NCBI GenBank assembly: GCA_903855135.1
Contig: CAINYB010000001.1
Span: 2,740-66,739, forward strand
DNA length: 64,000 nucleotides
Direction of reading: 5' to 3'
Source: an uncultured bacterium
GTDB taxonomy: Bacteria > Patescibacteriota > Patescibacteriia > UBA1558 > GWA2-36-10
Below the pieces are notes generated by a model that worked only from the letters and a program-made list of their open reading frames with translations, had not been told where the DNA came from and ran no database searches. Below, in pieces: positions 24,128 through 31,701 of the stretch (its first letter is position 1; each line of letters starts with the position of its first letter). The translations under genes and the position numbers were made by a program.

Positions 24128-24478
24128 ATGAAGAAAAGTGAAACAATTTTACAAAAAGATGTTAGTGAATTAAAAACAGATGTTAGTGAATTAAAAACAG
24201 ATGTTAGTGAATTAAAAACAACAGTCAATGACATTCTTTTTGCAGTGAATAAATTATCCGAAAATTTTGAACAAAGATTTGATAATGTAGAACAAGATTT
24301 GAGTAGCGTTAAACAAGACTTGAATGACTTCAAATCTACAGTGAATAATCAAATGGTGACTAAAGATTATTTAGACCGGAAATTAACAGAATTAAGAGGA
24401 GTAAATAAATTGACTACTCTTTTACAAAAGAAAAAGATAATTTCTCCAATAGAAGCTAAAATGGTTTTATCTATTTAA
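24128..24478 (+). CDS. coiled-coil protein, paralog 1 (116 aa) with a 3x heptad VNTR
   Basis: Paralog of 31372..31701, with near-identical 5' and 3' ends at the nucleotide level. Confidence 0.6.
   Translation: MKKSETILQKDVSELKTDVSELKTDVSELKTTVNDILFAVNKLSENFEQRFDNVEQDLSSVKQDLNDFKSTVNNQMVTKDYLDRKLTELRGVNKLTTLLQKKKIISPIEAKMVLSI
24158..24220 (+). repeat. 3 x 21-bp perfect tandem repeat (gatgttagtgaattaaaaaca) encoding DVSELKT x3
   Basis: Seen directly in the sequence. Confidence 0.9.
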
Positions 24479-24487
24479 AACTTAATC

Positions 24488-24518
24488 AAAGCCCCTCCCG
24501 CTATGCGGGAGGGGCTTT
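24488..24518. terminator. bidirectional terminator aaagcccctcccgctatgcgggaggggcttt
   Basis: Hairpin followed by a T-run. Confidence 0.65.
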
Positions 24519-24542
24519 GTAATTTACAAATTTTTTTATTTT

Positions 24543-26048
24543 TTATATTTTAATAATCGTTTGTTCTCTGTCTGGACCAACTGATATCAAATCAATTTGT
24601 CCGCCAGTATAATTTTCAATAAACTCGACTAAAGTTTTCACAGCTTGAGGCAAAGTTTGATAGTCATCTATCTTTGTCAAATCTTCTGTCCAACCACTAA
24701 ACTCTTGATAAATCGGTTGACAATGATACAAAATATCTGAATCTGGAATAAAATAAGCTATCTCTTGATTAGTTTTTAAAACTGAACCTGCATAAAATAT
24801 TTCCGGACCAGTATATTTATATTTGACGCATAATTTGATTTTCTCCAGGCCAGTCAAAACATCTATTTTAGTCAGACTTAAATTCTGTCCATTAAATTGC
24901 ATAGCGTATTTAAGAGCCACGAGATCGAGCCAGCCAGTGCGTCTTGGGCGACCGGTCGTTGCACCATATTCACGACCCATCAGACGAAAAGCAATACCTT
25001 GAGAGAAATCATCGGCTTTTAATAAATCTGGTAATTTGACAGCATATTTTTCTTTTTCCTCTTCTTTACTATGACCAGAAGCGCAATAATCCTCGCTTTG
25101 CTTTGCACCTAACTCACTCGGGAATGGGCCATTACCCACGCGCGTCATATAAAAGGCTTTAGCAATCCCAAAGACATAGTCAACTTCTCGCTCTCTAAGG
25201 CCACAACCCTTAGCCAGACCCGCTAGCGTACAGTCAGAAGCAGTTTGAAATTTTGTCGTACCATAATCAATGCTTAATAAAGCACCTTGCGCACCTTCTA
25301 ATAAAATATTTTTCTGCTCTTTTTTTGCTTGCTGTAGAAACAATTCTAAATTAATCACAAAATCTTTTAGCCGCAAAGCATACTCTGAATATTTTTCTAC
25401 TATTTTATCGACCGACAAAATATTTTGTTCATCAAAAAATATCCCCGCCCCTAAATGTGGGTGTAATAAAATTTGTTTGGCTAAATCTTTGTCTAGCTGG
25501 GCTAAGATATCTTTTTTATTAGCTAAAAAATTTTCTAGTTTACTTTTAAAATTAACTCTATCAAAAATATCATTGACAAATAAACTCTGACGACTGATAA
25601 AATCTGCATACAGTGGGCCAATACCACGTCCAGTGGTGCCGACTTTAGCTTTCATATCTGACATCCTATCGATCAAAAGATGATAAGGTAACATCAATGG
25701 TGCTTGGTGGCTGATTTTTAAATTTTTGACGCTAATATTACTTTCTGCCAATAAATCCAGCTCGTCAATAACTATTTTTGGATCAAAAGCCACTCCTCTG
25801 CCTAAGATATTAATTTTTCCTTGGCTATCATGCAAAATACCAGAGGGAATCAAGTGAAAAATATGCTCTTGATCATTGACTAAAATAGTATGACCAGCAT
25901 TGGCGCCACCGGTACCACGGATGATAATATTTGCCCAAGAGCTCAATAAATCCACTAATTTGCCTTTACCGGTATCTCCCCACTGATTACAGACAACAGC
26001 GACAATTTTTTTATCAGCTAAAAACTTTTGTAAAATATCTTGTTGCAT
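24543..26048 (-). CDS. purA: adenylosuccinate synthetase (long form, 501 aa, with inserted segments)
   Basis: GDTGKGK P-loop, GTTGRGIGP, and GATTGRPRRTGW. Confidence 0.9.
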   Translation of the reverse strand: MQQDILQKFLADKKIVAVVCNQWGDTGKGKLVDLLSSWANIIIRGTGGANAGHTILVNDQEHIFHLIPSGILHDSQGKINILGRGVAFDPKIVIDELDLLAESNISVKNLKISHQAPLMLPYHLLIDRMSDMKAKVGTTGRGIGPLYADFISRQSLFVNDIFDRVNFKSKLENFLANKKDILAQLDKDLAKQILLHPHLGAGIFFDEQNILSVDKIVEKYSEYALRLKDFVINLELFLQQAKKEQKNILLEGAQGALLSIDYGTTKFQTASDCTLAGLAKGCGLREREVDYVFGIAKAFYMTRVGNGPFPSELGAKQSEDYCASGHSKEEEKEKYAVKLPDLLKADDFSQGIAFRLMGREYGATTGRPRRTGWLDLVALKYAMQFNGQNLSLTKIDVLTGLEKIKLCVKYKYTGPEIFYAGSVLKTNQEIAYFIPDSDILYHCQPIYQEFSGWTEDLTKIDDYQTLPQAVKTLVEFIENYTGGQIDLISVGPDREQTIIKI

Positions 26049-26350
26049 AAAAAAGTAAAAAAATTAAAAGCCAATCCACTGTGAATCGGTAACGATTGTT
26101 GCAGACGGCTAAATATTTGCGCTCTAAAGCTTGGCAATTCCAACCCCTGAAAAATCAGGTGGGTTTCCGCAATTTAAGACCACGGTCTTAAATAATATAA
26201 GAATCCCAATAAGTCAGATTGTAGAGTTTTTTATTGCCAAACCGAGCGCAATTTAAATATAGCACAAAATATTTTGTGATGCAAAAAACTAAGTCTTAAA
26301 GACTTAGTTTTTTACTATCGCGCTAAAATATTATAATCAAAAAATTATAA
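26049..26350 (-). promoter_or_regulatory. about 300-nt structured purA leader plus ndk terminator (aaaaactaagtctttaagacttagtttttt)
   Basis: Long-range complementarity (attgcgctcgg...tagagcgcaa) and internal hairpins aagaccgtggtctt and cctgatttttcagg. Confidence 0.4.
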
Positions 26351-29666: not shown

Positions 29667-29756
29667 AATCGCTTTAATTATTTTGTAGCTTCAACTTAGC
29701 TGAAAATACTACAAAAGTCAATTCCACTTCAGCTATTACTAATTCAGCTATAAAAC

Positions 29757-29782
29757 ACCCGCCTTCGGCGGGTGTTTTTAAT
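29757..29782 (-). terminator. hairpin aaaacacccgccttcggcgggtgttttt
   Basis: Hairpin with T-run. Confidence 0.6.
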
Positions 29783-31251
29783 TACTTCTCTAAAATCACT
29801 GGCGTCACAGGAAAGTCTGGCAATAAATAAGCATTATATTTATCTTGCCCACTAGCCCAAAGCAAATTAGTACCGTCAGTCGTTTCGTCGCCTACTAAAG
29901 TCAACTGTAAACGAGCTTGTTCACCTAAAACTTTTACTTTAGCTAATAACTCCACTTCTAGGCCTTGATTGATCGGCGCACCATTTTCTCCAAAATCAAA
30001 AGTCAATAATTTATCTTGCCAGTTTGGCTTTACGACATAAGCTTGACCATTAATCCACAAATCCCAATCTAAAATATTCAAACCAAAATCTGCTACTTGA
30101 AAAGTTAATTTATGTAAGCTAGTGCTGCTAGAAGCTGCTTGTAAATCTACTTTAAAAACACTATTCCAATCATCAGTTAAAATACTTGGCTGCGCATCAG
30201 CTTTCATTCGTAAAACATCCACTCTTGGCTCTACGGTGCTTAAAGCTAAATCTACTTGGCTATGCAAATCTTCACCGGATAAAAATCCTTTAGCAACTAA
30301 ATTAGCTAAAGTAAACTGATAATTATCTTGGTTATTTAAATTCGCCCAAAGCTGTAAATTTAAATCTTGATCGATTTTTAAAACCAAATCACTTAAATTA
30401 AAAAATATGTGATCTTCTTCTATTTCAGCTTTGGCTAACATTTGTCCGCCACTGGCTAAATAAAAAGTATCAGCTGCGTCAATATTAGTAGTTAAAAAAT
30501 CTAGCTGTCTAATAGCAAAACTTTCCCCCTGACTAGACAAAGCAAAATCTGCTACTAAAGTATTAGTTTTTAGGGGAGCTAAAAATTTTGGTTTGCTTAA
30601 ATTATTATAAACTAAAATCTGACTATGCTCTAAAACTTTGACACTAGCTTTGAATAAAGGAAATTCACCTTGAGCAAAATAAAAACTCTGTCCGTCAGTA
30701 TTTACTATATCTTTAGCTTGTTGAAAACCAAAAATCAAAGTCTGACCAACTAAAGTATCATTTAGATTATCGGCTCTGAGCTGAAAATTATGTGTACCCG
30801 GTGTCAGGCTATAATTATCTAGCTTAAATAACATCTTGCCATCTGCAGTCCACTCCCAAGAGCCAATTTGCGTCTGACCTTCATATAATCTAACCTGATC
30901 TTTAAAAATGTCTTGTTTGATTATTTCTGGAGCTGAAATTGCTAAACTATGTAAATTAGTAGCTTCTTCGCTTTGTAAAATAAAAGAGAATAAAACATTA
31001 TTAATAGCCTGTGGTAATACTGCAGTGGTATTTTGATCAATAATAGCTACTTTGAGCTGATTATTTTTTGGGCTTAAAACCTCCGCATTAGAAGCTGGTC
31101 CTTTACTCCAAGATAAAGCAAAAACAAAACTCGTACTTGCTAATAAAAAACTGATAAAATAAAAACGCCATCGTTTTGATGAACGCTTTTGCTCTAACTC
31201 AACATGGTATGAAGGCATGAGGTGTTCAAACATGTTTATATTATAACACAT
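29782..31251 (-). CDS. secreted/membrane-anchored protein of unknown function (489 aa, beta-rich)
   Basis: N-terminal TM anchor followed by a long hydrophilic extracytoplasmic region. Confidence 0.5.
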   Translation of the reverse strand: MCYNINMFEHLMPSYHVELEQKRSSKRWRFYFISFLLASTSFVFALSWSKGPASNAEVLSPKNNQLKVAIIDQNTTAVLPQAINNVLFSFILQSEEATNLHSLAISAPEIIKQDIFKDQVRLYEGQTQIGSWEWTADGKMLFKLDNYSLTPGTHNFQLRADNLNDTLVGQTLIFGFQQAKDIVNTDGQSFYFAQGEFPLFKASVKVLEHSQILVYNNLSKPKFLAPLKTNTLVADFALSSQGESFAIRQLDFLTTNIDAADTFYLASGGQMLAKAEIEEDHIFFNLSDLVLKIDQDLNLQLWANLNNQDNYQFTLANLVAKGFLSGEDLHSQVDLALSTVEPRVDVLRMKADAQPSILTDDWNSVFKVDLQAASSSTSLHKLTFQVADFGLNILDWDLWINGQAYVVKPNWQDKLLTFDFGENGAPINQGLEVELLAKVKVLGEQARLQLTLVGDETTDGTNLLWASGQDKYNAYLLPDFPVTPVILEK

Positions 31252-31371
31252 TTTTTAAAAAGAAAAAAATAGCCCTATCTTAAGTTCAAAAAATTAGTTA
31301 AAATAAACATTTTTTTGACAAAACAAACAGTCAGAGATATAATATTAAGACTTAAATATTAAAAAAACTTT

Positions 31372-31701
31372 ATGAAGAAAAGTGAAACAATTTTACAAAA
31401 AGATGTAAGTGAACTAAAAATAACAGTCAATGACATTCTTTTTGCGGTTAATAAATTATCCGAAAATTTTGAACAAAGATTTGATAATGTAGAACAAAAG
31501 CTGACTGGAGTAGAGCAAAAGCTAGACAATGTAGAAACTAGACTTGGTTTTGTGGAAAGTACTATAAATACTCAAATGGTGACTAAAGATTATTTAGACC
31601 AGAAATTAATAAAATTAAGAGGAGTAAACAAATTAACTAATCTTTTACAAAAGAAAAGGATCATTTCTCCACTAGAAGCTAAGATGGTTTTATCTATTTA
31701 A
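31372..31701 (+). CDS. coiled-coil protein, paralog 2 (109 aa)
   Basis: Its start region (including 10 nt upstream) and C-terminal ~100 nt are near-identical to 24128..24478. Confidence 0.6.
   Translation: MKKSETILQKDVSELKITVNDILFAVNKLSENFEQRFDNVEQKLTGVEQKLDNVETRLGFVESTINTQMVTKDYLDQKLIKLRGVNKLTNLLQKKRIISPLEAKMVLSI

What the first reader, a model, noticed from the sequence alone, without database searches (positions are those of the whole stretch)
24128..31701. Duplicated coiled-coil gene with a 21-bp VNTR, present as direct repeats flanking a 6.9-kb comEC-REC-ndk-purA segment
ORFs 24128..24478 and 31372..31701 (both plus-strand, while everything between is minus-strand) share near-identical nucleotide sequence. 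The shared stretches run from 10 nt upstream of the ATG through about codon 12, and over the last ~35 codons. Paralog 1 has three perfect 21-bp repeats (DVSELKT x3) where paralog 2 has one. Each is followed by its own terminator. Direct repeats of ~100-300 bp this similar can mediate excision or duplication of the intervening segment. The hypervariable heptad block suggests phase or antigenic-type variation of a surface or oligomeric coiled-coil protein of unknown family, possibly XhlA-like or DUF1640-like.
Basis: seen in the sequence. Interest (0 to 1): 0.55.

Follow-up and report, generated by a model that had tools for sequence, protein, structure and literature searches.

The report
Recombining coiled-coil gene pair with heptad VNTR
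Two copies of a small, probably highly expressed helical-rod protein gene in a Parcubacteria (candidate phyla radiation, CPR) genome have been partly homogenised by recombination, and one copy gains or loses exact 7-amino-acid units between near-identical strains. This is a real but familiar kind of gene evolution in a protein family with no known function, and there is no sign that the DNA between the copies is excised.

Summary
par1 (24128-24478) and par2 (31372-31701) are plus-strand paralogs 7.2 kb apart. Each has a perfect TTGACA-N17-TATAAT promoter, the only two in 64 kb, and its own terminator. par1 carries three perfect 21-bp units where par2 has one.

Four related Parcubacteria lineages keep the same two gene slots. 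In the three whose contigs reach slot 1, it holds a diverged type (about 47% identity to par1). In the window, slot 1 keeps its own promoter, but everything from -22 to the stop codon is slot-2 type. That indicates gene conversion. N-terminal, middle and C-terminal modules are shuffled between slots in the relatives.

A second assembly, 99.99% identical over 20.3 kb, differs by two SNPs and one VNTR unit (2 versus 3 copies). The repeat is therefore polymorphic, but it is in frame: it changes rod length and is not an on/off switch.

No contig shows loss or rearrangement of the 6.9-kb segment. The protein has no signal peptide or transmembrane segment and does not match XhlA or DUF1640. It belongs to an uncharacterised family found mainly in Patescibacteria that is prone to 21-bp expansions. 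Its function is unknown.

The parts
24072..24100 (+). par1 promoter, TTGACA-N17-TATAAT (12/12). It is orthologous to the slot-1 promoter of relatives.
   Evidence: Positions -57..-23 are 34/35 identical to G36/L040 slot 1 but only 24/35 to par2.
24106..24478 (+). Inferred gene-conversion tract: the 5'UTR from -22 plus the whole par1 CDS, all of slot-2 (T2) type.
   Evidence: The 5'UTR is 21/22 identical to par2 but 12/22 to the slot-1 orthologs. The C-terminal part is 85/94 versus 62/87.
24128..24478 (+). par1 CDS, 116 aa, coiled-coil protein of the 'QMVTKDYLD' family.
24158..24220 (+). VNTR: three perfect 21-bp units (GATGTTAGTGAATTAAAAACA = DVSELKT). Each unit is one heptad, in register.
   Evidence: TRF 24149-24220, score 130. 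L009 has 2 units.
24284..24348 (+). Hypervariable heptad block of par1.
   Evidence: 27/61 identity to par2, while the flanking modules are 90-100% identical.
24487..24519 (.). Bidirectional terminator hairpin between the convergent par1 and purA genes.
   Evidence: -31.5 kcal/mol, z -7.4.
24543..31251 (-). Intervening housekeeping block: purA, ndk, REC, MBL-fold ORF, ComEC Competence ORF and a 489-aa hypothetical gene.
   Evidence: Pfam annotation of identical or orthologous genes.
31315..31343 (+). par2 promoter, TTGACA-N17-TATAAT (12/12).
31372..31701 (+). par2 CDS, 109 aa, with a single DVSELK unit.
   Evidence: The sequence equals P0001, found on 13 contigs.
31498..31571 (+). Hypervariable heptad block of par2.
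31716..31745 (+). par2 intrinsic terminator.
   Evidence: -19.9 kcal/mol, z -5.7.

Best explanation
par1 and par2 are two dispersed paralogs of an uncharacterised small coiled-coil protein family found mainly in Patescibacteria. They sit at two chromosomal slots that this Parcubacteria genus conserves: after rpmB, and between a 489-aa gene and prfB.

In the window's lineage, slot 1 was overwritten by slot-2-type sequence through homologous, non-reciprocal recombination (gene conversion). The tract is about 370 bp and runs from -22 to the stop codon. The slot-1 promoter and flanks were left intact. The same process has shuffled N-terminal, middle and C-terminal modules between the two slots in sister lineages.

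Later, one heptad-coding 21-bp unit in par1 expanded from 1 to 2 to 3 copies, by replication slippage or unequal exchange, and it is still polymorphic among near-identical strains. Each unit adds exactly one heptad, about 1 nm by standard coiled-coil geometry, to a continuous N-terminal helix without breaking the a/d register. The VNTR therefore tunes rod length and does not switch expression.

Shown: paralogy, synteny, tract boundaries, mosaicism, copy-number polymorphism, and the promoter and terminator anatomy.

Inferred: the direction of conversion and that the donor was in the same genome; the slippage mechanism; high expression; a cytoplasmic, oligomeric rod with conserved ends and a length-variable centre. 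The cellular role is unknown.
For: Synteny. Both slots are present in the four related lineages wherever the contig reaches them: G36 = L001-L008, plus L038, L039 and L040.

Slot 1 is anomalous. Slot-1 genes in the relatives have a different C-terminal type. par1 is only 46.6% identical to its positional ortholog, while the flanking L28, purA and REC are 100%, 93% and 95% identical.

Segment analysis. The promoter is 34/35 identical to slot-1 orthologs, whereas the 5'UTR and CDS match slot-2 genes (alignment).

Mosaics. L038_s2 and L039_s2 combine a T1-like N-terminus with a T2 C-terminus. L040_s2 has a T2 N-terminus, a T1 middle and a T2 C-terminus. L039_s1 has a 199-aa repeat-extended N-terminus.

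VNTR. L009 matches the window over 20,351 nt with only 2 SNPs and the 21-bp indel. The 3-unit allele is on 9 contigs. Recent 21-bp duplications occur in 10 of 35 family genes, with different unit sequences.

Protein. AF2 gives pLDDT 86 with helices at 2-68, 72-94 and 100-107. There is no hydrophobic segment.

Expression signals. Both genes have perfect promoters that are unique in the window and strong terminators.
Against: Timing and donor are unresolved. par1 is as similar to the G36 slot-2 gene (about 93%) as to the window's own par2 (about 94%) in the conserved modules. The donor could therefore be a foreign allele.

The lineages form a near-star phylogeny at 83-87% nt identity. Polarity therefore rests on parsimony (3 lineages against 1) and on T1 keeping a segment that most of the wider family has.

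The identical 5'UTR and first codons also occur in diverged paralogs (P0007, P0012). Part of the 5' identity therefore reflects constraint and not recent conversion.

The 2-unit allele was seen in only one assembly, and no reads were examined. High expression is inferred from the promoter consensus alone.
Confidence: 0.72

Rival explanations
1. The two copies act as direct repeats that excise or duplicate the 6.9-kb purA-comEC segment, and the VNTR gives phase or antigenic variation of a surface coiled-coil protein.
For: The copies are direct repeats with exact runs of 54, 48 and 29 nt, which could in principle support RecA recombination. The VNTR copy number does vary. Contig L010 breaks inside the repeat.
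Against: No deletion, hybrid-gene or circular-junction contig appears among the 13 contigs carrying par2 or the 24 carrying the G36 ortholog. L011 is the normal arrangement. The order of the segment's genes is conserved in all five lineages, and the segment carries purA, ndk and comEC. The 21-bp unit is in frame, so it cannot switch the gene on or off. There is no signal peptide, transmembrane segment or anchor. The L010 break is equally explained by the 54-nt identity between par1 and par2.
Confidence: 0.07
2. Slot 1 was replaced by homologous recombination with imported DNA (natural transformation) that carried a T2-type allele. Intragenomic conversion from par2 was not involved. The modules circulate among strains as alleles.
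For: par1 is no closer to the window's par2 than to the G36 slot-2 gene, and its heptad block best resembles L039_s2 and G36_s2 (43/65 and 42/65, against 27/61 for par2). T2 modules are 92-95% identical across species, while neighbouring genes are 83-87%. The genome encodes ComEC.
Against: An incoming slot-2 fragment would have to recombine at slot 1 using only the short T1/T2 homologies. That is the same requirement as intragenomic conversion, but with a rarer substrate. No relative with T2 at slot 1 was found as a donor. The high cross-species identity also fits purifying selection on a highly expressed gene: the ribosomal-protein region is about 91% identical.
Confidence: 0.17
3. Assembly artefact. 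The slot-1 gene or its repeat number is a chimera or miscount produced by short-read metagenome assembly across paralogous sequence.
For: The data are metagenome assemblies. Contigs do break at this gene (L010). The 2-unit allele rests on one MEGAHIT contig.
Against: The same par1 sequence in the same flanking context comes from independent studies and assemblers: the ERZ14268xx series on 9 contigs, ERZ27313396, and BUCK21-1. The 63-bp array is shorter than a read and shorter than k=141. par1 differs from par2 at scattered sites and in the whole heptad block, so it is not a copy-paste chimera.
Confidence: 0.03

Closest known systems
Concerted evolution of dispersed bacterial paralogs by gene conversion (for example tufA/tufB in Salmonella; cited from my own knowledge)
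   Same: There are two dispersed chromosomal copies at conserved positions. Non-reciprocal RecA-type exchange homogenises the coding sequence while the flanks and promoters remain locus-specific.
   Different: Here the copies are direct, 7.2 kb apart, only partly homogenised, and mosaic in modules. The family is of unknown function and carries an internal hypervariable block.
Size-variable coiled-coil repeat proteins (streptococcal M and M-like proteins, Borrelia Bdr paralogs, Mycoplasma Vlp/Vsa; cited from my own knowledge)
   Same: In-frame tandem repeats inside a coiled-coil gene change copy number between strains, and paralogs or alleles recombine into mosaics.
   Different: Those proteins are surface-exposed, with signal peptides, lipoprotein or LPXTG anchors, or transmembrane segments. 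The window proteins have none, are only 109-116 aa long, and sit among housekeeping genes.
Braun lipoprotein Lpp as a length-setting coiled coil (cited from my own knowledge)
   Same: It is a small, very abundant, monocistronic coiled-coil protein in which adding heptads lengthens a molecular spacer.
   Different: Lpp is a secreted, lipidated trimer. Here there is no signal peptide or lipobox. The Pfam LPP score is 19.9 bits against a cut-off of 29.1, so only the composition is similar.
   Same: All share heptad-rich helices with 'RLDxVEx'-like repeats.
   Different: All scores are below the curated cut-offs. The hallmark QMVTKDYLD motif and the C-terminal KKxI..E.K..L helix of this family are not part of those models. 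XhlA has a membrane anchor, which is absent here.

Membership tests
XhlA haemolysin family (PF10779) | Score at or above the Pfam gathering threshold (34.7 bits) | tested here: not met
   par2 scores 14.5 bits (E 0.041). XhlA is not among the 25 families listed for par1. Only 9 of 74 family members give sub-threshold hits.
XhlA haemolysin family (PF10779) | Hydrophobic membrane-anchoring segment | tested here: not met
   maximum 19-residue Kyte-Doolittle hydropathy is 0.61 and 0.71, well below about 1.6.
DUF1640 / CCDC90-like | Pfam model match | tested here: not met
   it is not among the listed hits for either protein (all 12 families for par2, the top 25 of 83 for par1), nor among the 25 commonest families across the 74 relatives.
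DUF7310 coiled-coil region (PF23991) | Score at or above the gathering threshold (40 bits) | tested here: not met
   14.8 bits. In one search, 27 of 74 relatives give weak hits (best E 6e-8), consistent with shared coiled-coil composition only.
Phase-variable (on/off) contingency locus | A repeat whose copy change shifts the reading frame or alters promoter spacing | tested here: not met
   The unit is 21 bp, lies inside the CDS and is in frame. Both the 2-unit and 3-unit alleles encode full-length proteins.
Size-variable VNTR gene | Copy number differs between otherwise near-identical genomes | tested here: met
   over 20,351 nt there are 2 SNPs and one 21-bp unit difference; the 3-unit allele is on 9 contigs.
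Surface or secreted variable antigen | Signal peptide, lipobox, transmembrane segment or cell-wall anchor | tested here: not met
   (hydropathy) and direct reading: the N-terminus MKKSETILQKDVSELK is charged. No dedicated signal-peptide predictor was available.
Gene conversion between paralogs | The CDS resembles the paralog while the flanks stay orthologous to the positional homolog, with definable tract ends | tested here: met
   promoter 34/35 to slot-1 orthologs; 5'UTR and CDS of slot-2 type; downstream purA side orthologous to slot 1; 46.6% aa identity to the positional ortholog against 93-100% for the neighbours.
Direct-repeat-mediated excision or amplification of the intervening segment | Alternative junctions: a hybrid gene joining rpmB to prfB, or a circular or tandem junction | tested here: not met
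   only the canonical arrangement is seen in assembled contigs. Raw reads cannot be tested with these tools.
Patescibacterial 'QMVTKDYLD' small coiled-coil family (undescribed; defined here) | Full-length match to the family profile: N-terminal DIL.A[IV]N.[FL]S, heptad run, QMVTKDYLD.K, C-terminal L..L..KK.I...E.K | tested here: met
   164 cluster representatives at E<1e-10, mostly 100-150 aa and matching end to end; the named hosts are Falkow-, Magasanik- and Uhrbacteria, Parcubacteria and Patescibacteria. No Pfam or NCBIfam model covers the family.

The most novel reading that the evidence does not exclude
The family may be an abundant structural coiled coil, largely restricted to Patescibacteria. 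Its conserved N- and C-terminal modules would mediate assembly, and its central heptad block would be deliberately variable in length and sequence, following the logic of flagellin, pilin or M protein. Under this reading, paralog recombination plus 21-bp slippage would act as a contingency mechanism in these reduced-genome episymbionts, for example to tune a spacer or an element contacted by hosts or phages.
Probability: 0.12. Interest if true: 0.6.

Novelty: new member of a known kind. Interest (0 to 1): 0.36.

Why it matters
CPR/Patescibacteria genomes are small and full of unannotated genes. This locus documents three things:
- active homologous recombination (gene conversion and module shuffling) and a live VNTR in such a genome;
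- an unannotated protein family, found mainly in these bacteria, that carries the only perfect consensus promoters in 64 kb and is therefore probably abundant;
- conserved ends around a hypervariable heptad core.

This gives a concrete target for metaproteomics and structural work, and a strain-typing marker. It does not reveal a new mechanism.

Tried and rejected
- An exact look-up of par1 alleles with 1 to 6 units in the protein collection found none. The gene-position index did find the 116-aa form.
- The JGI metagenome DNA scan with the shared 35-mer returned only two already-known G36-like contigs.
- No relative was found in IMG/VR viral contigs. PHROG hits are to coiled-coil families, most with no assigned function.
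- PADLOC hits are SMC-type, LmuB-type or PbeC-type coiled-coil noise.
- The PDB profile search hit only viral fusion and trimeric coiled coils, over the heptad region only.
- Neighbourhood clustering across 24 loci found no conserved partner gene, so there is no guilt-by-association function.
- Rfam found nothing in 20-36 kb.
- Two literature searches returned no papers.
- L011 looked at first like a possible alternative junction, but it is the normal comEC end.
- Dating the conversion from divergence was abandoned, because T2 modules are as conserved between species as between paralogs.

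
Full report
OBSERVATION

The two ORFs are real. par1 is 24128..24478 (+, 116 aa) and par2 is 31372..31701 (+, 109 aa). All substantial ORFs between them lie on the minus strand. The proteins are 68% identical (E 3e-53), and tblastn finds no other copy in the 64-kb window.

At the DNA level, identity starts 19-22 nt upstream of the ATG.
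- The first exact run is 54 nt (24109-24162 = 31353-31406).
- A second exact run is 48 nt (24248-24295).
- Shorter exact runs follow over the last ~45 codons.
- A ~65-nt heptad block in the middle is essentially unalignable.

par1 contains three perfect 21-bp units at 24158-24220, encoding DVSELKT three times. TRF scores this 130, the best tandem repeat in the window. par2 has one unit.

Each gene ends in a strong hairpin terminator: -31.5 kcal/mol (z -7.4) and -19.9 kcal/mol (z -5.7). Each gene is preceded by a perfect TTGACA-N17-TATAAT promoter. These are the only two such sites in 64 kb, where 0.02 are expected by chance.

The 5' leaders are A/U-rich, unstructured and lack a Shine-Dalgarno sequence. 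That is normal for this genome: only 2 of 55 genes have one.

WHAT THE PROTEIN IS

Neither Pfam nor NCBIfam has a model for it. Every hit is a sub-threshold coiled-coil match: Baculo_PEP_C, DUF7310, LPP, XhlA and SMC-like.

A word-indexed search of 5.8 billion proteins found only 13 relatives.

An exhaustive HMM search found more.
- 164 cluster representatives score E<1e-10.
- Most are 100-150 aa long and match end to end.

The family consensus is..DIL.AIN.FS..V..RF, then a variable number of heptads, then QMVTKDYLD.KLADLRGDLVVL.RKED.K..L...L..KKVI...E.K.I..EPFP. The window's subfamily lacks the GDL...RKED segment and the EPFP tail.

GTDB genomes carrying the family include Falkowbacteria, Magasanikbacteria, Uhrbacteria, Parcubacteria and Patescibacteria. 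A number of records carry other labels, such as 'uncultured Gammaproteobacteria'. Genomes often hold two copies. No relative was found in IMG/VR viral contigs. No gene is consistently adjacent across 24 loci.

AlphaFold2 gives pLDDT 86, with a long helix at 2-68, a second helix at 72-94 and a short one at 100-107. The hydrophobic a/d pattern reads continuously from about residue 12 to residue 72, so the 7-residue unit keeps register (read directly from the sequence). There is no signal peptide or transmembrane segment.

The protein is therefore most likely a soluble, oligomeric rod. The consensus promoter suggests it is abundant. Its cellular role remains unknown.

COMPARATIVE ANATOMY

Four related lineages were examined: G36 (L001-L008), L038, L039 and L040. 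They are 83-87% identical to the window in housekeeping genes at the nucleotide level.

All four keep the same neighbourhood: rpmB, slot 1, purA ... comEC, a 484-aa gene, slot 2, prfB. Where the contig reaches both slots, both are occupied.

In G36, L040 and L039, slot 1 carries a 'T1' gene with the C-terminus FAEFRLEETPKHQRVNKLTNILQQKKILTLADTKIILS. Slot 2 carries a 'T2' gene with the C-terminus L.ELRGVNKLT.LLQKKKIITPLE.KMVLSI.

In the window, slot 1 is T2 throughout.
- par1 is only 46.6% identical to its positional ortholog.
- The neighbours L28, purA and REC are 100%, 93% and 95% identical.

Segment analysis locates the tract.
- Promoter, -57..-23: 34/35 identical to G36 and L040 slot 1, but 24/35 to par2.
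- 5'UTR, -22..-1: 21/22 to par2 and to the G36 slot-2 gene, but 12/22 to slot-1 orthologs.
- C-terminal module: 85/94 to T2 genes, against 62/87 to T1.
- Beyond the terminator, the purA side is again orthologous to slot 1.

This is the signature of a gene-conversion tract of about 370 bp covering the 5'UTR and the CDS.

Module shuffling is general in this group.
- L038_s2 and L039_s2 combine a T1-like N-terminus with a T2 C-terminus.
- L040_s2 has a T2 N-terminus, a T1 middle ('LSDDIEQRFTGVDQKF...') and a T2 C-terminus.
- L039_s1 has a 199-aa form with four ~19-aa (57-bp) N-terminal repeats.

CAVEATS ON THE CONVERSION

In the conserved modules, par1 is about 94% identical to par2 and about 93% to the G36 slot-2 gene. 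par2 is about 92% identical to the G36 slot-2 gene. The event therefore cannot be dated, and the donor cannot be proven to be the resident par2.

The T2 modules are about as conserved across species as the ribosomal-protein region (about 91%). That fits strong purifying selection on a highly expressed gene.

The 5'UTR plus MKKSE is retained even in the 46%-identical and 36%-identical paralogs P0007 and P0012. Part of the 54-nt identity therefore reflects constraint and not recent exchange.

The lineages form a near-star phylogeny. Polarity (T1 ancestral at slot 1) rests on three points: three lineages against one, the orthologous slot-1 promoter, and T1 keeping a segment that most of the wider family has.

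THE VNTR

Contig L009 comes from a different study (ERZ27313396). It matches window 21351-41701 over 20,351 nt and differs in only three ways:
- a SNP at 25803;
- a SNP at 31752;
- one gap, which is exactly one 21-bp unit (2 copies, 109 aa).

The 3-unit, 116-aa form is on 9 contigs from the ERZ14268xx series. The repeat is thus among the fastest-changing sites in this 20 kb.

It is in frame. It produces size variants, not on/off switching.

Across the family, recent 21-bp tandem duplications (85% or higher nt identity) occur in 10 of 35 genes examined. Their unit sequences and positions differ. Heptad slippage is therefore a property of the family.

EXCISION HYPOTHESIS

No contig carries a hybrid gene, a deletion or a circular junction. 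This holds for the 13 contigs with par2 and the 24 with the G36 ortholog. L011 is the ordinary arrangement. L010 breaks inside the repeat, but that point lies next to the 54-nt identity between par1 and par2, which is itself enough to break an assembly.

The segment holds purA, ndk and comEC, and its gene order is conserved in all lineages. Rare events cannot be excluded without reads.

VERDICT

It is wrong on excision, phase variation, surface location and the XhlA or DUF1640 assignment.

The phenomenon is paralog gene conversion plus an in-frame heptad VNTR, which is a known kind. The protein family is undescribed. Interest is moderate to low. The most novel reading that survives is a length-variable and sequence-variable structural coiled coil, largely restricted to Patescibacteria, that is maintained by recombination.

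Noticed in passing
window 26049-26300 (minus strand), upstream of purA: The ~230-nt purA leader is about 95% conserved across four lineages whose coding DNA is only 83-87% identical. It folds into a long multi-stem structure (-68.9 kcal/mol, z -5.1) with one compensatory pair. It ends in a terminator-like hairpin and a U-run just before the purA ATG. There is no Rfam match even at E<=1. It is a candidate new riboswitch or attenuator.
   Followed up: partly
window 26049-26952; L001 3948-5767; L039 2147-3006: There are two alternative cassettes between purA and the REC gene. The window and L039 have a 170-aa ndk (97.6% identical to each other). G36 and L040 have an Asp/Glu racemase plus a 192-aa ndk that is only 38% identical. 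No racemase remnant is present in the window.
   Followed up: partly
L043 7638-8009 (between rpsT and truB): P0007 (123 aa, 46% identical to par2) has the same TTGACA-N17-TATAAT promoter and almost the same 5'UTR and first codons. It comes from the same BUCK21-1 sample series as window-species contigs L010 and L011, and has similar GC content (0.36). It may be a third paralog of this genome. The GTDB scan pattern would have missed it because its motif reads QMLTKDYLD.
   Followed up: partly
window 15890-15984, 18982-19028, 19402-19496, 31768-31870, 36456-36492: A family of GC-rich intergenic hairpins (CTCCCCCTTCGTAAGGGGGAG and a partner CTCCTCCCCTT..AAGGGGAGG) occurs in a 36% GC genome. Four sites match within 3 mismatches, where 0 are expected by chance. 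They look REP-like or like terminator modules. One pair lies just downstream of par2.
   Followed up: partly
window 1-54000: Almost every gene is on the minus strand, and GC skew is uniformly negative on the plus strand. rpmB, par1 and par2 are among the very few plus-strand genes before ~54 kb, so they are probably transcribed head-on to replication. This might favour slippage and recombination, but that is speculative.
   Followed up: no
window 27406-29666: ComEC is split into a Competence/DUF4131 ORF (478 aa) and a separate MBL-fold ORF (275 aa). The two overlap by 4 nt. The split is conserved in all related lineages.
   Followed up: no
whole window: The genome is essentially free of Shine-Dalgarno sequences: only 2 of 55 long ORFs have a GGAG-like motif upstream.
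   Followed up: no
L003 12264-13283 versus L001 16036-17046: Near-identical G36-like strains differ downstream of the Fic gene. One carries an RVT_1 reverse-transcriptase ORF of 339 aa. The other has a 336-aa ORF with no Pfam hit at the corresponding position.
   Followed up: no
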